Assembly (NCBI GenBank): GCA_951406725.2 | Contig: OX597822.1 | Coordinates: 49,104,001-49,168,000, forward strand | Length of the DNA: 64,000 nucleotides | Source of the DNA: Octopus vulgaris | Taxonomy: Eukaryota | Direction: 5' to 3' | In this document: one piece after another, positions 2,025-60,596 of the stretch | Numbering within the stretch: the stretch's first letter is position 1 | Layout: every line of letters starts with the position of its first letter | The notes under the pieces: generated by a model | Told to the model about the DNA's origin: nothing | The model's input: only the letters and a program-made list of their open reading frames with translations | The model's database searches: none | Program-made: the position numbers and the translations under genes

Positions 2025-3293
2025 TTTTTCTACCAGTAATTACAAATAAAACATGTTAAATTGCGTCTTTTCAAGGCCAAAAGAACGCCCTCAGTGATCA
2101 CTGGTAGTAGTAAACACATTTGGCCTCTGCTGACAATAAAATCTCTTAAATTTTAATATTATTCAAAATTGCTACCAACAGCTCTTATGACAATGTTAAT
2201 TACTGAACAATACCGAGTGATTTTCTTGTACGAATACAAGTTGGGTCACTCTGCCGCCGAAGCTCAACGAAACATTAAGCATGTTTTTGGTAACGATTCT
2301 GTTGACATTAGAACTGTTCAGAGATGGTTCCAAACATTTTACTCAGGAAATAAAAGCCTTAAAAGTGAACCAAGAGGGAGACCAAAACCAGTTATTCGGC
2401 ATTATGAATTGAATTCTTTAGTTAAACGAAATCCGAGAAAAACAGTCCGAAATATCAGATCTGAGCTCCAGACACCTCCCTCAACTGCTTCTCGACACTT
2501 GAAGAAAATTCGAAAAGTCAAAAAGATGGATAGGCTTGTTACCCATCAATTTAATGAGATTAAAAAAAGCAACAAAAAAAACAGACGCCTTACAGCGTAT
2601 TCCATGTTCTTGTCTCGGCTGGAAAGAGAACCATTTTTGTATCGACTTATTACATATGATGGGCAATGGATACTCTTTGATAACAGCAGGAGGACAGAAC
2701 AGTGGTTAGATGCAGGAGAGTCACGAAAACACTACCTAAAACCGCCACTGCACCCTAAAAAGTTGATGGTCACTGTGTGGTTGTCAACAAAGAGGGTTAT
2801 TCATTATTCATTTTTGCAAAAGGAAAAACTGTAACAGCAACATCCTATCGTCAGGAAATTGATTGTATGCATGAAAAATTAAAAAAGAAGCAACCCAGAT
2901 GGTCGAGTTTTGATTCATGATAATGCACGGCCTCACACTACTCAAGCTACGGTCCACAAGTTGAAAAGCCTGAATTATGAAATTTCATTACATCCTCCTT
3001 ATTCTGCTGATATCGTTTCTACTGATTATCGCATGTAAACACTTCGAGCTTGCTATACGCAATAAAACATTCTTAAATAAAGAAGAGGTAATTGAAGCAT
3101 TTCAACAGTTTATCAGTGTAAAAGATGACAAATTCTTTGAAGATGGAATATATGCCTTAGAGGAACGTTGGATGAAGGTCATAAATGAACAAGGATCATA
3201 TTTTGATCAAATAAATAAATATTCTGAAACTTAAAAATACAATTTTAATGTTTCCCTTTTGAAATGCGACATTTCATGTGAAACAACCTAATA
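2025..3293 (+). mobile_element. mariner (DD34D) transposon, decayed, 5' TIR not found
   Basis: ORF 2169..2834 with HTH (FLYEYKLGHSAAEA..TVQRWF), EPRGRP, ITYDGQW; HDNARPH near 2916; HPPYSAD near 2991; 3' TIR ..catttcatgtgaaacaacctaa followed by TA. Confidence 0.9.
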
Positions 3294-5668: not shown

Positions 5669-6705
5669 AAATACGAGCAAAACAAAAAACTGTTCTCAGT
5701 ATTTAAGGAAGCTGACTAATAAAAACAAGAAATCATACCACCTAACAAATATGAAGAAGAAGAAGATGAAGAAACAACAAAAGCTATGAAACAAATGAAA
5801 TCCAAACTAAAAATAGAACAGCAACGAACCATGATAAAACGATGACAAGAAAAGCCCCTTCGTGGCTAATACTGGACTAAACTAAATGCAAAAGAAATAG
5901 ACAAAGAAAAATCCCAACAATGGTTGAGAAGCTCAGGACTCAAAGCAGAGACAGAAGGATTTTTAATTGCAGCACAAAACCAAAGCTTCCCCACCAGAAA
6001 TTACCAAAAACATGTAATGAAAAGAAATATAACAAGTAACTGCAGAATATGTGGAGATGGACAAGAAACAATAAATCATATTATCTCTGGCTGCCCAGTC
6101 CTGGCTAAGAAGGAATATATTCACAGACACGACAGAGTTGGGACCTATATACACTGGAAACTATGCCAACATTATGGAATAACAACAGAAAAAAGATGGT
6201 ATAGGCACACACCAGAAAAGGTCACAGAAAACGAGAAAGCAACCATACTCTGGGATATGCCAATACACACAGATAGAGAAATTAAGGCCAACAGACCAGA
6301 TATAGTTGTCAGAGATTATGAAGAAAAAAAAAAGTTTTCTAATTGATGTATCAATACCAGCAGATGACAACGTGTCTCTAAAAGAAATGGAGAAACTTTC
6401 AAAATACAAAGACCTGGAAATAGAGGTAACCAGAATGTGGAATCTAAAAGCAGAAACAATTCCTATCATAATAGGTGCATTAGGCATGATAAAAAAATAT
6501 TCAGACAAATACATAACAAAAACACCAGGACTTACAAACATATATAACATACAGAAAATTGCACTATTAGGCACTGCACACATCCTACGCAGAACACTTT
6601 CCATACAATAACCATAAGAGCATCACAACAAATCACAGCACATACCCAAGGCACACAGAGCTGCGTTCGGCAGTGAAGTGAAAGTACGATATAAAAAATA
6701 TACTA

Positions 6706-10659: not shown

Positions 10660-11528
10660 TAGAGTCCAAATCTCGCCCGCCAGTAGTTGTTGATAATAAG
10701 TGAATCGAGACTTTAATAAAAAAAATCCATGTCACACAACGCGAGACATCGCGGAAATTCCGTAAATAACTCATGCGAACGTTATAAAGCATTTAAAAAC
10801 ATTTTGTTACGCGAATTGCTATGAAGTTTGGGTGCCTCATAACTTAATACAGAGCATTTCCATCTGCTGAGACGAGACAAAAATATTTACAACAACATAA
10901 AACGAAAATGGTCCTGAGGGAAAACGAGATGAACCGTCTTCAATCTCTTCAAAAACTGGTCTGTATCCGAAGAAGGCGATGCTCTGTATCTGTTGGGATT
11001 GGAAGGGCATTGTGTATTATGAGCTACTTCTACAAAATCAGACGTTAAATTCAGGCTGTTGTTGTTCTCAATTAGACCGATTAAAGGATTGATGAAAAAC
11101 ATTAATTGATGAAAAACATCCAGAATTAGCCAGCCAAAAGCGGATCGTCTTACATCAGGACAACGCAAGACAGCACGTTTCTTTGCAGACCAGGCAGAAA
11201 TTGGTGTAGCTTGGATGGGAAGTCCTACCACACCCACCGTACTCACCTGACTTTGCATCATCGGATTCTCATTTATTCCGATCCCTTCAAAATTCTCATA
11301 ATGGGAAGAACTTCGATTCTTTAAAAGAGTGTAAAGACTACTTAGAACAGTTCATAACCCAGAAAGATGCCAAATTCTGGGATGATGGGATCATGAATCT
11401 GCCTCAAAGATGGTGAAAAGTAGTGGACAAAATGGGAAATATGTGGTTGAGTAAAGGTATGTACAACTATCTAAATATTGTTAATGAACTTTACTTAAAA
11501 ACGTTACGAACTTTTTATCAGCCCAATA
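10660..11528 (+). mobile_element. mariner remnant (3' two-thirds)
   Basis: WVPHNL near 10829, HQDNARQH near 11153, HPPYSPDFASSD near 11231, 3' TIR ..ttacgaactttttatcagcccaa followed by TA. Confidence 0.85.
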
Positions 11529-28908: not shown

Positions 28909-30235
28909 TTTTTTTGCAAACTTGCCGATGCAGGTGCTTCCAGTTGAAAGCTCCGCATACCGGATTCTAGCAAGTTTATGGGGTCATCAGGAGAGAATGC
29001 GTGCCGTTTCGGGGCCTACCTCTCGACAGCATCATTGCGCACCCACCTCACTGAAATGAAGCCCTGCTTGCTAGATCAACTGGTTATCAGGTTTCGCTCA
29101 ATATTCTTCAAACCATTGCTCATCGTCTCTTTTTCACCAAATCCAATGGCCTGCCTTTTCCACTGTAGTTTGGATATCACTCATGGTGGTATTTGCTTTA
29201 CAATGAGTTAGGCCTAACGATAAAGACAGACGCCTCACACTGTGTCCAACGAATACTCTACATCCGACTTCGATCAGAAAATATTCCTCTTCACATTCCT
29301 CGAGGAGGTTTTGTAACGGTCAATCCTTCGAGTCCGAGCGGCGTCCGTATTATATTCATGAGGAACCGTTAATTCAACCAGATTTACCACTTCCTTTCCC
29401 TCGCACCATACGACGACATCCGGTTTCTTCGTAACTGGAATAGGAAAGAATCCCTGGCACCCTAGTAAATCTGCAGCTCCCTCCCAATAACCGTTCAACT
29501 TTTCGTCGTTCAGAGGAAGTTACTTCTTCAATCGGATCTGCTGTCCTGAGCGCACGAAGGTAATGACATCTCTGGTCGGTTCTTTCAGTGGTTTTTGCCA
29601 CTGTTCATGAGAGCAATTTGGTTCTTTATAGTATTGAAAGTAACCTTAAGATTGTGTGCTCATGTATATCTATTCAATGCCTGTGAACAGTTGGAAAGAA
29701 TATGTTTTACTGTTTCGACTTTTCCGCATCTGCATCTATCATTTTCTGATACGTTCCATCTTAGGTTTGTAGGTGATGGCAAGACATCGTAGGAGGAACG
29801 AATCAGAAAACTGAGACGTGATATAGTCCACTTCCATATTTCATTGCAACTTATTTTTCTCTCAACAGCGTGTTTCTCTCATTTCATCATCTGTCCTTGC
29901 TAAGATCATTGAATCAAATGAAGCTCTCTTCTCTCTGTTTCCCTTGTTTTGACGCTGTGGCTAACAACAACTCTGCGTTCGCTCCTCATCATGCTTGCAA
30001 ACAGTCTGAACCGATCTGCGCCAAATTCAAGCCTCTTCCGATGAATTTGCGTTCCACCCACCATATCTCGGTGCGTAAGTGAAGATGTCATCATTCTCTG
30101 CTTCTGTTTTCCACTTCCTGGCTGTTTTTATATCTGGCGGATTACGCCTTATGTCTATATCTTTCGACTCTCTCAACATCATAAACGTTCGTACCTTCCT
30201 TACTTTATAAATTTCCCTACTGTATCTAACGTTAA
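28909..30235 (-). mobile_element. 3' part of a HERO-like RLE non-LTR retrotransposon
   Basis: Minus strand ARKWK, PSPTNL, CRCGKVETVKHILSNC (CCHC), KKPDVVVW..LVELTVPHE..RRIDRY (PD..ELT RLE); 3' UTR ending in A7 followed by tatatac. Confidence 0.8.
28981..29031 (-). ncRNA. non-circularly permuted hammerhead-like motif in the HERO 3' UTR
   Basis: UGCUGU-C-GAGAG..GAA-ACGGCA..CUCUC-CUGAUGA; stem III 6 bp (one G-U), stem I 5 bp. Confidence 0.7.
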
Positions 30236-30569: not shown

Positions 30570-31223
30570 ACAACGAGAGAAACAAATGGAAACAAGACAA
30601 GTAACATAAAGAACGACCTTTCATCAGTTGTCGGATGTCTATCTACTCCTCACTTCGGGCATTCATCCTTTCTCTAATTCTTCTCTCTCATCCTTTCTCT
30701 AATTTCCGTTTTTCTCCCATTCACCATTTTCTACATCTCCCTCTCCCCCTTTCTCCTGTTCTCTCTCTCTCGTTTCTCACACGTGACCATCGTCCGTCTT
30801 TCTTTTCCTCACGTGAACATCTTTTCTTTCAGGAGTGTCCTAAGGGCTAGACGTATCCTATCTCTCTCTTGTATTTTTTCTCTTGTCAAAGAAAATATTT
30901 CTCCGGCGTTCGCTATTTTACCCTTGTTCTAGTCTAACGACCCTCTATCTTTGTTTTCGTTCGGTTTCCTTGTATGTCTCAACTGTCCTGTTTTTGTTCC
31001 CAACTTTGTCCTTCCATAAATCCCAAATTTTATTTTGGTACTTATGGGAGCAACTGTTGTCGAATACTCATATTGTTGAATGCTCGAAGTGAGGAGTAGA
31101 TAGACAGCCGACAACTGATGAAGGGTCGTTAGTTGTCCTGTTTTCCATTTGTTTCTCTCGTTGTTTGCGTATTGAACTCTGTTTTCGTATTTCATGTTGT
31201 TTATTGTTAGTGACGTCCTGTAT

Positions 31224-34879: not shown

Positions 34880-36102
<1,223 letters not shown>

Positions 36103-36686: not shown

Positions 36687-38649
<1,963 letters not shown>

Positions 38650-44847: not shown

Positions 44848-44884
<37 letters not shown>

Positions 44885-44930
44885 TATATATATATATACG
44901 TATATGTACATACTTACATTTATACGTATA

Positions 44931-45760
44931 TACATATGCATATGTGGGCAGAGGACGTCACAAAACGTAAACAACAAAAAATATGAAGTACGAGGACATG
45001 GAATATGAACGTTTTTGAACGACGAAAGGAAAACATGGAAAACAAGGCAAACAAAACAAAGAACAACCCTTCATCAGTTGTTGGCTGTTTTTCTAATCCG
45101 TATTTCATGCAATTCACGACAAGATACGCCTTCGATAAAACAGTTGGTCCGCAAAGCAAATTTAATAAAATTTGGGATTTTGCGGAAGATCAAAATTGGT
45201 GACAAAAACAGCACAATGAAAACAAACAGGTAGGGGTGCTAAGGCTGAACGGGGTTGTGGTGGCGAACGCGAAGAAAGAAGCTTGGACAGGTGACAGACA
45301 AAAATACGTCTTCCTCGTCCAGCCGCAACAGGAAGAAAGAATGAAACATAAGCTAGGAGAAGAAAGAAAAATGGCCGATGGTCACGTGGGAGCAATGTGA
45401 GCAAAGGAGGAAGAGTGAGGAAGAGAGAGCAACAGACAGATAACTGTGAAGGGGAGAGGAAAAAATTTGAAGAAAGGATAAGAGAGAAAAAAAGAGAGAG
45501 AGAGATGGGGAGGTAAAAGAATAAGAGAAAGGAAGAATGAAAACGAAAGAATAAGGGGATACAATAGTGGGAGAAGAGAAGGTAAAAGAATAAGAGAAAG
45601 GAAGAGAGAAAAAACGAAAAAGCAATAGGTAGAATAGAGATGTTCCTTGTGTTGTTTGTCTCGTTCGTTGTTCGCAAAAAATTCACATTCCATCTCCTCG
45701 TACTTCGTATTTTTTGTTGTTTACGTTTTGTGACGTCCGGTGCCCACATATGCATATGTA
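44931..45760 (-). mobile_element. non-coding fold-back element, family A, with about 105-bp terminal inverted repeats in a TA-rich microsatellite
   Basis: catatgcatatgtgggca..ggacgtcacaaaacgtaaacaacaaaaaata..gaagtacgagga at both ends in inverted orientation. Confidence 0.8.
45066..45128 (-). ncRNA. non-circularly permuted hammerhead-like motif
   Basis: CGUAU-C-UUGUCG..GAA-AUACG..CAACAA-CUGAUGA; intact core; stem III differs from the 31067 copy but still pairs. Confidence 0.7.
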
Positions 45761-45788
45761 TCTCTCTCTCTCTCTCTCTCTCTCTCTT

Positions 45789-45851
<63 letters not shown>

Positions 45852-51033: not shown

Positions 51034-51061
<28 letters not shown>

Positions 51062-51065
<4 letters not shown>

Positions 51066-51425
51066 TCAAAGGTAGAACAAAAAGAACACAACACACGGAA
51101 GCCAACGAAACACAACATGCGGAAAAATGGACGATAGCACGATAAACGGCAAACAGGGCAAAAACAAAATGAATGGATTATTCGTAGTCGATTAACTCAT
51201 CAGTAAGAGTCCGGAATGTCCTTGTAGTTTCGCCTCTTTATCTCCCATACTACTCGAATCCAGGGGGCGGGGCTGGGACTTAAGCTAAAAATCTTATGCT
51301 TCTGGGAGGGGCAAACGAATGTGTACAAGGACGAGAACAGGAATGGAAACAAAAGCTAGAATTATACACGTATGACTACGTTTTCCGGCTATGCAATAGA
51401 AGCAAAAAAAAAAAGAAAGAAATTG
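51062..51425 (-). mobile_element. unclassified non-coding element ending at (TA)n and carrying a permuted hammerhead
   Basis: On the minus strand a G/T-rich tail of about 130 nt follows the motif and runs into (TA)n at 51040-51062. Confidence 0.5.
51194..51253 (-). ncRNA. non-circularly permuted hammerhead, best-preserved copy
   Basis: GUAGU-A-UGGGAG-auaaaga-GGC-GAA-ACUAC-14nt-CUCUUA-CUGAUGA-GUU; all core nucleotides, stems I and III, and a 3-bp stem II with G10.1-C11.1. Confidence 0.78.
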
Positions 51426-51433
51426 TACATATA

Positions 51434-51792
51434 GGCGCAGGAGTGGCTGTGTAGTAAGTAGCTTGCTTAGCAACCACATGGTTCCGGGTTCAGTCCCACT
51501 GCGTGGGTCGACCAAAACCTTGTGAGTGGATTTGGTAGACGGAAACTGAAAGGAGCCCGTCGTATGTATATGTATAAATGTATGTGTGTGTATATGTTTG
51601 CGTGTCTGCGTTTGTCCCCCCAACATCGCTTGACAACCGATGCTGGTGTGTTTACGTCCCCGTAACTCAGTGGTTCGGCAAAAGAGACCGATAGAATAAG
51701 TGCTAGGCTTACAAAGGATAAGTCCTGGGGTCGATTTGCTCGACTAAAGGTGGTGCTCCAGCATGGCCACAGTCAAATGACTGAAACATGTC
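51434..51792 (+). mobile_element. OR-like SINE with an internal deletion
   Basis: ggcgcaggagtggctgtg..cagtcaaatgactgaaaca; CORE segment missing. Confidence 0.88.
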
Positions 51793-55424: not shown

Positions 55425-56358
55425 CGAGGGGGTACCCAAAAGTACCCGGAAATGTTCTCTGTCGGAATACCCATTGTAGTTCAGACTTTCGCCGCTAGAA
55501 GCCACTTGATGTGACTCTCAGGCACGAGTCTGCCGACAGGTGTCTTCGGGTGATGTCGCACTGCCTCGTGACACGACATTTTTTGGCAGTGCTTCTCGCC
55601 TGTTCGTCGATTATTGCGGTGGATGAAACGAAGGAACAACGTGCTTCCGTGAAATTCTGCTTTCTACTAGGAAGGGGTGGGGGGCAGTCGAAACAGTTGT
55701 CATGCATTCAACCGCTTATAAGGACGCTACCATGAGCAAAACACAAGTTAAGAAACGATAACTTGTTGCTTGATGACCAATCTCGTTCAGGGCGACCGTC
55801 GACCTCCCGAACGAATGAAAACACCGCATGATGTTTTCATGAACTGATTTTGGAGGACCGTCGCCGAACAATTGAGCAACATATTGATATGAGTGAAGTG
55901 CCTGCCAACGAATTTTGAGCGAGGAAAAGCAAATGGAAGGAGTTGCAGAAAAAAATTTTTGTGCCTCACTTGCTCACGGAAGATGAAAAGTAGTCACGAC
56001 TAAATGCGTGTCGTGAACGGAAAGAACAGTTGGAAGTTGATCCAAATCTTTTTTTTGAAGGTCATCACTGGTGACGGAAGCTGATGCTACGGCTACAACC
56101 CGGAAACGAAGCAGCAATCGAGACAATGGTAGCATTCAATGTCACTACGCCCCCCAAAATGTGCGTCATGTGAAGTCCAATGTCAAGACGATGTTGATTT
56201 GTTTTATCGATTCGAAAGGAATTATCCACGCAAAATTTGTTCCTCCTGGTCAAATGGAGAATACTTTCAAGGCGATAAAAGTGCAATCATGTAAAACTAA
56301 GTGAATAAACGAATAAAATAATATTACGAAATTCCGGTTTGCTTTGGCTACCCCCTCG
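55425..56358 (+). mobile_element. internally deleted mariner with both TIRs and TA flanks
   Basis: TA-cgagggggtacccaaaag ... ctttggctaccccctcg-TA; EQRASVKFCFLLG, RSGRPSTS, FVPHLL, ITGDGS..YNPETKQQS. Confidence 0.88.
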
Positions 56359-57545: not shown

Positions 57546-60483
57546 CAGTTCTGCTGATGCCTTGCAAACCTGTTGGCAAATGGCTCAAGTATAGGCCTCA
57601 GTTTGCTCGAGTGCTTATGGATCACTTACTGCGTGTTTTCTGGGGTGGACAGTAAGTCCTGCTTTGCTCTGTGCCATAGTGGCATGTAAAGTTTTCATTT
57701 GGAAGAGTGGCGTTTATATACGCACACATACGCCTCGGTATGTGCGTGTGTGAACAAATAATTTACGCACATATTTATGAAGTTCAATAGAAGTATTTAA
57801 ACAGGTGTCCGGAAATTTACGTAGGAATTTAAAATGTCATAACATGTCAGATCCCTTAGTGATTTTGGCTACATTTATACATAGATACACACACATACAT
57901 GCACACATACATACACACATGTATGCATAGATATACGTATATTCAGTCATATACCAATACATTTACTTACATATATAAGCGTATCCAATGTGCTTCATAT
58001 CGATTTTTACTGTAGGTTTCTATTTCATTGCATGTATCGCTTCGCTGATATTAGATAAATATATAAGTCTGTTTATTTTTGCATAAACACTCTTGGTTTG
58101 TATAGAGAGACTCATTCGACCTATATACTGCTTTATATATTCCACCGATTTCGTTTAAAATATTTGTAGACATCTAACGATAATGGTTTCCTTTGTTTCT
58201 TTAAATTTTGCTTTCAGTATTATGAACATTTTCTTTATATAATTTATCTTTTCAGAAATATATTTTAATGCAATAAAATAAAATTAAAGGACAAAAGACA
58301 AACAAAAACAAGCAACAACCGGGAAAATCAAACACAAACTAACAAACATAAAGAAACCGTGAAATACAAAACAATAAGAAAATATAGAAACACACTTTGA
58401 AAATATAATACTTATAATTTTTTTCTTTTGTCTATATCGACTTTTCTATTTGCTATGTAGTGGTTTAATGTAGATTACATTTCATTTCTATTTCTGTTTA
58501 TAGCTTTGAAAACGTCAAGAGTTGCACACATTTGAATCCTAAATACACCGATATCGGTTTCAATCTTGCAATTTAACACAATATGTGGGTGTGAAGGCGA
58601 TGCTATTGAAAGGATCAGAAACTATTCAACCAAAGCAACGTCTGATGACGCCTATTGATATAAAAACCAGTGTACGTATGCAAATGTTCTCTTATCTCCA
58701 GACAAGGACCTTGTCCTATTCCTTAATGGTATATCAACTTTACAGAATTCCTGATTCTTGCAATTATCTCCTATTCTCATATGGAACTGTTTTTAATTGC
58801 CATTTGGTAATTGTGACAAATCCTGTAGAGACAGAGATAATTTCAAATTTATTTAAGAATTTATACTGTAATTTTATAGGATATACATGTATTTGCCTTT
58901 TTTTCCTTTAGCATGGATTTCAAATATGCAGCAGCGTTTTGTTGTTTTGTCTCACCTAGAAATGACTAAGTTTCACTTGTCATAAGGTGTTGAAATTATC
59001 AGATCTCCTGGAAGTCACTTGTGGTTCTTAAAATACTTTCCTCCATAAATATTTGTTTTCTTCTATTAATTTGTTCCTCGCTTCTAATATCTAAATTACA
59101 ACAGTAATATATCTTATTCCACCAACATTTATTTTTCTTCTAACCTACACTTTCCGTTAACTAAAATATGTTAGCTCTTCTGACATTTGTGCTCTCCTAC
59201 TATAATCTGTTTTAACTTATGACATCCGCCTGCTTTTCCAACATCTGTTCAATCTAACTTATGTTTTCTCCGATCGTCATTTGTTTCTTCTTACTAACAC
59301 ATCTACTTCTACCTACCAATATGTTTCCTTCTCCTTACATCTGTTTCCTGTTTTTAACATCTGTTTCCCGTTTTTAATATATGCTTCCTTGCCCCAAAAT
59401 ACGTTTTCCCTACTAACATTTATTTCTACATATTTACGTTTCCACCTACTAAGAATTGTTTTTCGCTTGCTGCTTTCCTATACGCTGTTCTCCACCACCT
59501 ATAATTTATTTGAGTAATTTATCAGTATGCATTTTTATCTGTCTGTCTATCTGTCTCGCTTTCTCTCTTACTCTCCGTCTCTCCAACGAAATACCCCGTT
59601 GGAAAATTAGACTTCTTCGTTGCGTTGCAATAAAATGATATATTATTTGTCGACATTCGAACTCGCATTTTCCGAAGCATACAATTACTATTTCCTAGAA
59701 TTTTACTGTTATACTTCTTTATAACAGACTCTCATTTTATTCCGAATGAAATTTCATTTCTCATTTCGTTGACGTGACTTAACCTGGAGCTAAGAACGGC
59801 ATGTCAATGATACTATGACATTTCAAACACGATACAACCTAAAGCAACACGGGCAAATATTTTCACTAAACCGACAATGAGAAAAAGAAACCGAATCTTT
59901 CTGAAAGTATACCGTACTATCTAGCAAAGCAAAGAAAAATTGGATAATATAACCCTCAATGTATAATACCTGAAAAAATATTTAGTGATCACAAATGGAA
60001 TATCTTTGATTACCAACTATGCTAAGGGCTGAACAACAACGCAATCCATTTAATTGTTCCGTACAACAATCAAAATAAAACGTGAAGTATCTTAGCATGT
60101 GTAGAAAAGAAAACTAAACGTTTCATTGAATGTTTATATCTGAAATAAAATTTCTAAATTTAGCAAGTTAAATGCACAGGTGACTGTTTTGTAAACCTTG
60201 AAAACGGAATCTTTGCCTGATGAGCATTAAGAGACGTTAAGCATCACAATATGAAATCATCGATGATCTGGCTACATCTGCGACCGTAGGGAGTTTGTCT
60301 CCCTTGTCAGTCATTAAGATTGTGCTTCTGTGGCTATTGAGTTGTTTTGACTCTTATTTCTAGCAATACTGGTGCTGATTAGTACCCTTTGTCACTTAAG
60401 TGATGTATATATAAATACAAAATGGGACAAGAACGGAAAACATTCAATTAGACGATACAAAAAACACGGACGGGTCATTCGAA

Positions 60484-60548
60484 GCCTCTAATCTTCAGTC
60501 AAGAACCGGATCATCCTCGCAATTCCGGCTCATTAATCTTGTGATTGC
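60484..60548 (-). ncRNA. permuted hammerhead-like motif in a short TA-adjacent repeat (about 60412-60588)
   Basis: GCAAU-C-aCAAGA..GGA-AUUGC..UCUUGA-CUGAAGA; two point deviations. Confidence 0.6.
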
Positions 60549-60596
60549 TCCAATCTAGCCAGCCCCAAGGAAAAAAACCAAGCTAAGTGTGCGTGC

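What the first reader, a model, noticed from the sequence alone, without database searches (positions are those of the whole stretch)
51194..51253. Best test substrate: fully intact 60-nt permuted hammerhead
All canonical core positions are present (CUGAUGA, GAAA, GUA site, G10.1-C11.1) with three stems. The linker from stem I into stem II is plausible because the distal ends of stems I and II are adjacent in the hammerhead tertiary fold. Predicted cut between 51248 and 51247 on the minus strand.
Basis: partly seen in the sequence, partly recalled or inferred. Interest (0 to 1): 0.8.

Follow-up and report, generated by a model that had tools for sequence, protein, structure and literature searches.

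The report
Rewired hammerhead in Naiad-type retroelements
A jumping-gene remnant carries the catalytic letters of a hammerhead self-cutting RNA in a scrambled order, and relatives from several animal groups keep a predicted fold outside the six published hammerhead layouts, which would explain why 'Naiad' retroelements seemed to lack this ribozyme; cutting is untested and this copy is likely damaged.

Summary
The window holds three such cores, against about 0.12 expected.

In paralogues the bases after CUGAUGA differ. In 4 metagenome loci and, read by eye, 10 published Naiad consensi, stem II's 5' strand lies upstream of the cut site, and the strand after CUGAUGA forms an extra helix (P4). The catalytic core is thus likely opened between A9 and G10.1, a wiring outside the six permutations of Eckert et al. 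2023 and not found in my paper searches.

It sits where other Penelope-like elements hold their hammerhead, and Naiads are reported to lack a canonical one. This copy has a broken P4 and weakened stems I and II. It is not intact, and the 60-nt piece omits stem II's partner, so it is a poor test substrate. Cleavage is untested. The window element's Naiad membership is inferred, because no ORF remains.

The parts
51063..51420 (-). Decayed, ORF-less pseudo-LTR-like remnant of a dispersed repeat family that carries the ribozyme; ends approximate
   Evidence: Dozens of 80-95% alike contigs in three organisms cover 51068-51400; no Pfam RT or GIY-YIG hit in 295 window ORFs; ends in (TA)n
51275..51281 (-). 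P4a: upstream strand of the extra helix that pairs with the bases after CUGAUGA; decayed here (2 of the first 4 pairs form)
   Evidence: family loose ends show a pyrimidine strand complementary to the majority letters after CUGAUGA (inferred from unlinked tallies)
51263..51273 (-). 5' strand of stem II, beginning with G10.1; the family position is likely 51272 (C in this copy), and G51273 or G51268 could substitute (4 of 6 pairs either way)
51242..51253 (-). Block S: stem III strand, U16.1 (51249), A17 (51248), predicted cut 51248/51247, stem I strand
   Evidence: Sequence; pairs
51238..51241 (-). Short linker from stem I into the 3' strand of stem II
   Evidence: 2-5 nt in the nine copies tabulated; Eckert 2023 describe about 3 nt for type SGC
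51224..51237 (-). Block G: 3' strand of stem II (51237-51232, A at 51237 and 51235 where most paralogues have G), GAAA, stem III strand
51197..51209 (-). Block C without stem II: stem I strand plus CUGAUGA
   Evidence: majority letters at 51205, 51206 and 51246 make stem I six Watson-Crick pairs
51191..51196 (-).
   Evidence: 51195 and 51194 differ in most paralogues
51039..51063 (.). (TA)n tract at the element's 3' end, a preferred Naiad target
   Evidence: PMC8557442 section 6
60480..60575 (-). Sister copy with the same layout (GGAA for GAAA; upstream stem II of 4 pairs); likely the same family, by shared downstream sequence with the loose ends, judged by eye
   Evidence: blastn did not link it to 51203
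45060..45190 (-). Copy of a second family, same layout, with P5 hairpin; stem II decayed; an inverted partial copy lies at 45645-45807
31005..31130 (+). Copy of the second family: P4, P5, upstream stem II of 5 Watson-Crick pairs, GAAG for GAAA; inverted 5'-truncated copy at 30570-30665
28980..29065 (-). Copy of a third family: stems I and III intact, no local stem II possible (C opposite C), upstream stem II decayed and of uncertain register

Best explanation
The stretch holds hammerhead core letters in S-G-C order inside a decayed repeat that is likely the tail of a Naiad-type Penelope-like retroelement, whose ribozyme is predicted to have its core opened between A9 and G10.1 and would cut the element's RNA after the GUA. 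The order along the RNA is P4a, an optional hairpin P5, the stem II 5' strand (G10.1), the stem III strand, UH and the cut, stem I, a 2-5 nt linker, the stem II 3' strand, GAAA, stem III, stem I, CUGANGA, and P4b. P4 and P5 would stack and exchange strands with stem II and the A9-G12 pair as a four-way junction that replaces the A9-G10.1 bond (inferred). In this copy's family a 2-3 nt linker seems to replace P5. The likely job is that of other Penelope hammerheads: cutting tandem precursor RNA in the pseudo-LTR (inferred). This copy has lost P4 and part of stem II and is probably inactive or slow.
For: Three S-G-C cores against 0.117 expected. A metagenome pattern that specified no pairing gave 38 distinct matches: all 4 with stems I and III also had a perfect 6-pair upstream stem II starting with G, and 0 of the other 34 did (Fisher p=1.4e-5; P4 in 4 of 4 against 3 of 34; two of the four are close relatives). 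The same test found 0 of 38, 0 of 112 and 0 of 100 S-block cases in prokaryote and viral matches. Over nine copies, stem I paired at 43 of 45 cells, stem III at 34 of 36, upstream stem II at 46 of 54, P4 at 29 of 32, and the local stem II at 11 of 27; every position but G10.1-C11.1 showed 2-4 Watson-Crick pair types. L049 has the motif about 520 nt upstream of an ORF with an N-terminal GIY-YIG (PF01541, E=1.6e-5), CxC and DKA, the Naiad hallmarks. By eye, 10 of 54 published Naiad consensi carry the layout in their 3' ends. In the target's own family the majority letters restore stem I and supply a G-rich stem II 3' strand, and only 1 of the 40 listed difference rows falls on a core letter.
Against: No cleavage was measured. 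Eckert 2023 state that no known alignment has more than 1-2 nt inserted next to CUGAnGA, so an opened core might not be active. The registers of upstream stem II and P4 were picked by hand and lean towards the model. In the four metagenome loci the pattern itself ruled out a local stem II and fixed the P4b letters. One search gives unlinked per-position tallies, shows 40 of 149 rows, and keeps only contigs at least 80% alike. In this copy and most of its family a G follows CUGAUGA, so a one-pair local stem II cannot be excluded. No Naiad ORF remnant lies in the window, so clade membership is inferred. The published consensi were read by eye, not computed, and 38 of 54 showed neither layout in the passages I saw.
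Confidence: 0.75

Rival explanations
1. One reading: an intact type-SGC hammerhead (Eckert 2023) whose stem II is G51196-C51232 plus two U-G pairs, active as a 60-nt RNA.
For: All core letters, the S-G-C order and a possible G-C pair next to the core are present. G after CUGAUGA seems kept in this family (no listed change at 51196). Natural SGC ribozymes cut in vitro.
Against: The duplex is +0.6 kcal/mol. Positions 51195 and 51194 differ in most paralogues: 10 and 8 contigs in X3, 6 and 4 in X6, 8 and 5 in X15. Local stem II pairs at 11 of 27 cells over nine copies (four of them fixed by the pattern). No I-II interaction helix was found by eye.
Confidence: 0.08
2. The layout is real and conserved but no longer catalytic: a hammerhead-derived fold that the element's protein recognises, or that ends or stabilises its RNA.
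For: The A9-G10.1 link is broken, which has no tested precedent in the papers I read. Metazoan PLE hammerheads cut poorly in vitro. One identical contig from a run guessed to be RNA runs through the cut site (X4 record 17; strand unknown, may be DNA).
Against: CUGANGA, GAAA, UH and G10.1-C11.1 are kept while all stems change, the pattern expected of selection for catalysis. One extra nucleotide between 9 and 10.1 is common in PLE hammerheads.
Confidence: 0.13
3. A decayed canonical type III (S-C-G) hammerhead whose GAAA block lay downstream, at 51190-51184, with the upstream GAAA an accident.
For: The sequence at 51189-51185 can pair with the stem III strand, and a one-pair stem II could close behind CUGAUGA.
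Against: There is no GAAA there. Paralogues differ at 51188 (all X3 depth, 17 contigs) and 51185 (13 contigs), so the match is specific to this copy. Sister families show the same S-G-C order.
Confidence: 0.02
4. Chance co-occurrence of short motifs in repeat-rich DNA.
For: The motifs are short, and Rfam finds nothing.
Against: and the published consensi.
Confidence: 0.02

Closest known systems
Type-SGC hammerhead ribozymes (HRIMA-1 and variants; Eckert et al. 2023, PMC10085705; read parts 1-6 of 8, supplements not read)
   Same: S-G-C block order, full core, short linker from stem I to the stem II 3' strand, pseudoknotted stems.
   Different: There block C keeps CUGAnGA joined to stem II, and a I-II interaction helix is needed; they were found in metatranscriptomes and none in genomes of known organisms. 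Here stem II's 5' strand lies before block S, P4 (with or without P5) replaces the A9-G10.1 link, and the host is an animal retroelement.
Type-CSG hammerheads (Eckert 2023; two metagenome examples)
   Same: Same cyclic order of strands. The window's layout equals CSG opened at A9/G10.1. By eye, 6 nematode Naiad consensi carry complete CSG motifs.
   Different: CSG keeps the core continuous.
Minimal and canonical type-I hammerheads in pLTRs of Penelope-like elements (Cervera and De la Pena 2014, PMC4209133; parts 1-2 of 4 read)
   Same: Place in the element, core letters, probable role in cutting precursor RNA, tolerance of a nucleotide between 9 and 10.1.
   Different: Those are C-G-S order with little or no helix III and are thought to work as dimers. 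This one has a long stem III and looks monomeric.
Naiad 'HHR_core' and 'HHR_half_core' annotations (Craig et al. 2021, PMC8557442; passages, section 6, supplement metadata, three whole parts and motif searches read)
   Same: Same elements and 3' region; the authors noted half cores with the other half 35-50 nt away on either side (Naiad_Ovul is one).
   Different: They reported no canonical hammerhead and no fold. Several consensi with the full layout (Plae, EuTe, Amil, Obim) carry no HHR remark.
Pseudoknot (pistol-like) hammerhead (Zhan et al. 2024, PMC11300833; part 1 of 6 and passages read)
   Same: Helix II is largely formed with a distant upstream strand, and there is a fourth helix.
   Different: A9 stays joined to G10.1, which keeps a local pair with C11.1.

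Membership tests
Hammerhead ribozyme (class) | Core letters CUGANGA, GAAA, UH | tested here: met
Hammerhead ribozyme (class) | Stems I and III flank the cut site and covary | tested here: met
Hammerhead ribozyme (class) | Stem II closed by G10.1-C11.1 next to GAAA | tested here: met
   Met with an upstream strand: 6 of 6 pairs in 4 loci; 4 of 6 in this copy
Hammerhead ribozyme (class) | Site-specific self-cleavage | not testable with these tools
   Only contigs were available
Rfam hammerhead families (types I-III) | Match to a covariance model | tested here: not met
   0 matches on 51068-51420; no hammerhead family among 9 matches on the 4 loci
Type-SGC hammerhead (Eckert 2023) | Block order S, G, C | tested here: met
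Type-SGC hammerhead (Eckert 2023) | Block C unbroken: CUGAnGA directly followed by the stem II strand | tested here: not met
   a one-pair G-C remains possible in this family
Type-SGC hammerhead (Eckert 2023) | Helix joining the free sides of stems I and II | tested here: inconclusive
   None seen by eye in this copy; the paper's figures could not be seen
Naiad PLE (window element) | ORF with N-terminal GIY-YIG, CxC, DKA and RT | tested here: inconclusive
   No ORF is left in the window; present beside the same RNA layout in L049
Naiad PLE (window element) | (TA)n target; truncated tandem or inverted pLTR units | tested here: met
   (TA)n at 51039-51063; inverted copies at 30570-31164 and 44884-45807 in the sister family; not specific to Naiads

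The most novel reading that the evidence does not exclude
Many Naiad retroelements across animal phyla carry active non-circularly permuted hammerheads: type CSG in nematodes and, in cnidarians, an acanthocephalan, a crustacean and cephalopods, a seventh wiring whose catalytic core is split at A9/G10.1 and rebuilt as a four-way junction, derived from CSG by circular permutation in tandem copies.
Probability: 0.6. Interest if true: 0.85.

Novelty: new variant of a known kind. Interest (0 to 1): 0.74.

Why it matters
Eckert et al. enumerated six hammerhead permutations on the assumption that CUGAnGA stays joined to stem II, and found the non-circular ones almost only in environmental sequence. 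A conserved form that breaks this assumption would enlarge the known wiring of the best-studied ribozyme and put non-circular permutations in animal genomes. It would also answer a stated puzzle, the lack of canonical hammerheads in Naiads, which had been taken to suggest that the ribozyme is dispensable for these elements. The claim is testable with an RNA of about 110 nt, and the open A9/G10.1 junction would be a new place to attach switches in engineered ribozymes. The particular copy flagged matters only as a pointer to the family.

Tried and rejected
No genome is held for the window, so there is no genome-wide count. Rfam on the whole window listed 150 of 235 matches, all microsatellite-driven miRNA or snoRNA models below their gathering scores. 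Pfam on 295 window ORFs found transposase and zf-RVT scraps but no PLE protein, and tblastn of the L049 ORF found nothing in the window. The L049 protein gave 0 loci in viral and prokaryote collections. The first pattern gave 0 viral matches; relaxed patterns gave only chance matches in the scanned parts (23 and 33 of 64 parts). The metagenome scan stopped at 38 of 64 parts, and 77 of its 119 loci were one gut-bacterial sequence. No RNA holder listed. Contigs cannot show ends or strand. A MAFFT alignment of 7 copies was out of structural register, so pairs were counted by coordinate instead. Minimum-energy folding cannot form the pseudoknotted model. My first reading of the 28990 copy's stem II partner was dropped; its register stays uncertain. 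The downstream second-G-block idea was rejected. Look-ups of earlier findings by sequence and by place were empty. Paper searches that found no description of this wiring: (open-licence PMC and bioRxiv only). The Eckert supplements and all figures were not seen and could bear on novelty.

Full report
Observation. On the minus strand the window reads GUA at 51250-51248, GAAA at 51231-51228 and CUGAUGA at 51203-51197. Stem III has four Watson-Crick pairs plus U16.1-A15.1. The order is S-G-C, which Eckert et al. 2023 (PMC10085705, parts 1-6 of 8 read) call type SGC. A descriptor needing stems I and III of four or more pairs finds three S-G-C cores in the window and none in the other five orders, against 0.117 expected from 60 local Markov resamples. 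Rfam has no match there.

Surroundings. The window is animal-like DNA rich in microsatellites and transposon scraps. Its likeness to octopus repeats is recalled, not tested. The motif lies in a pyrimidine-rich stretch of about 360 nt between a multi-copy SINE-like repeat (51426-51700) and a (TA)n tract. Related cores lie at 60498, 45077, 31115, 30627 and 28990. The 45077 and 31115 copies each have an inverted, truncated partner, the arrangement described for Penelope-like elements. No PLE reading frame remains.

The lead. Craig et al. 2021 (PMC8557442) report that Naiad PLEs lack canonical hammerheads, prefer (TA)n, and in eight cases show a 'half core' with the other half 35-50 nt away on either side. 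I read their Naiad consensi by eye: motif hits for ctgatga (places 1-55 of 62), ctgaaga (1-35 of 43), ctgacga (all 23) and ctgagga (all 25), and parts 12, 19 and 24 whole. Motifs broken at line ends would be missed. Ten of 54 consensi show S-G-C order with stems I and III: Obim, Ovul, Amil, Aacu, Anas, Naiad-2_Movir, Plae, EuTe, one in part 9 (probably Clytia) and one in part 8 (probably Bfor, with a 2-pair stem I). They make about seven independent lineages. In these the bases after CUGANGA do not pair with the bases before GAAA. A strand upstream of the cut site does, for 4-6 pairs, beginning with a G opposite the C before GAAA. The bases after CUGANGA pair with a strand further upstream (P4; one mismatch in Obim and Ovul), and in most a hairpin (P5) fills the gap between that strand and G10.1. 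In Plae and EuTe the motif begins about 40-50 nt after the stop codon. Six further consensi in the nematode part of the file show complete type-CSG motifs. The other 38 showed neither in what I saw.

Independent test. A pattern naming only core and nearby letters, with no pairing, gave 119 metagenome loci and 38 distinct matches. Four had stems I and III (L049, L064, L093, L108; the last two are close relatives). All four also had a perfect six-pair upstream stem II starting with G, against 0 of the other 34 (p=1.4e-5), and a four-pair P4, against 3 of 34. The pattern fixed the P4b letters and ruled out a local stem II, so these loci show that the fold is complete without one, not that a local stem is selected against. 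The same test gave no S-block case among 38 prokaryote and 112 plus 100 viral matches. In L049 the motif lies about 520 nt upstream of an ORF with an N-terminal GIY-YIG domain (PF01541, E=1.6e-5), CxC and DKA, the Naiad hallmarks. Over nine copies the counts were stem I 43 of 45 cells paired, stem III 34 of 36, upstream stem II 46 of 54, P4 29 of 32 (eight copies) and local stem II 11 of 27, with several pair types per position. The registers of upstream stem II and P4 were chosen by hand.

This copy's own family. Laying four runs at 80% likeness brought 77, 55, 93 and 2 contigs (X3, X6, X15, X4), mostly under 90% alike; 40 of 149 difference rows were shown. Majority letters at 51246, 51205 and 51206 turn both G-U pairs of stem I into Watson-Crick pairs. 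Those at 51237 and 51235 are G, which completes pairing with the C-rich upstream strand. Position 51272 is G in the few contigs that reach it. Only one shown row (51229, two contigs) touches a core letter. These are unlinked tallies. One contig each from organisms B and D spans the stretch with few changes, so the insertion is probably old (inferred). One identical contig from a run guessed to be RNA crosses the cut site; contigs cannot show strand or ends.

Mechanism. Shown: the letters, the order, the pairing potential and its recurrence with different sequences. Inferred: that A9 leads into P4 and P5 leads into G10.1, so that P4/P5 and the core/stem II meet as a four-way junction; that cutting follows ordinary hammerhead chemistry; that the job is to cut tandem precursor RNA, as proposed for other PLE hammerheads; and that the form arose from CSG by circular permutation, since opening CSG at A9/G10.1 gives this strand order. 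In the flagged copy P4 keeps 2 of its first 4 pairs and stem II 4 of 6 (-3.9 kcal/mol against -11.9 to -13.4 in the four loci). It is probably weak or dead. I put the chance that the 60-mer cuts well at about 0.1.

Comparison. It works like a hammerhead and shares block order with type SGC, but fails the SGC feature of an unbroken C block. [quoted passage not shown] The pistol-like pseudoknot hammerhead keeps A9 joined to G10.1. Passages of PMC3088659, PMC10162972, PMC13725137 and bioRxiv 10.64898/2026.07.22.740005 (8) described no such form. Searches found none, within a library limited to open-licence PMC and bioRxiv; figures and the Eckert supplements were not seen. Earlier notes of this scan mention rearranged hammerheads in Penelope-like elements and an opened core in phages. 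They are unchecked and are not counted as support.

Verdict. The 'best test substrate' claim fails, but the motif points to a probably undescribed hammerhead wiring in Naiad-type retroelements. New variant of a known kind; interest 0.74.

Noticed in passing
L049:2707-3360, L064:710-1240, L093:419-640, L108:422-640 (all minus strand): In all four metagenome loci the ribozyme starts about 15-25 nt after the stop of an ORF ending in a ubiquitin-protease-like domain (PF00443, E=6e-23 in L049 and 2e-17 in L064; L093 and L108 similar by eye). It may mark a Naiad subfamily with a C-terminal or second-ORF deubiquitinase.
   Followed up: partly
PMC8557442 File S5, parts 13-16: Six nematode Naiad consensi (Naiad-1, -2 and -3_Nbra named; three others not named in the passages) carry complete type-CSG hammerheads by eye; Eckert 2023 had two CSG examples.
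   Followed up: partly
PMC8557442 File S5, part 16 (place 12): One consensus shows S, G and C blocks with a hairpin between stem I and GAAA, possibly yet another wiring; uncertain.
   Followed up: no
window 21279(-) and 21813(+): Inverted pair of another repeat, each with a CUGANGA core and a GAAG about 30 nt downstream; the S-G-C descriptor did not call them.
   Followed up: no
window 32437(+), 60217(+), 46319(-): Further CUGANGA cores in pLTR-like remnants; 60217 lies about 280 nt from the 60498 copy on the other strand.
   Followed up: no
window 3761, 4814, 5398 (+): Three copies of a repeat share a CUGAAGA in the same context; no stems were sought.
   Followed up: no
window 51426-51700 (-): SINE-like repeat directly upstream of the element, with at least ten other partial copies in the window.
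   Followed up: no
window 2157-2831, 10901-11089, 35397-35801, 36996-37992, 56059-56301: Mariner/Tc1 transposase fragments; zf-RVT scraps at 5870-6343 and 29663-29878.
   Followed up: no
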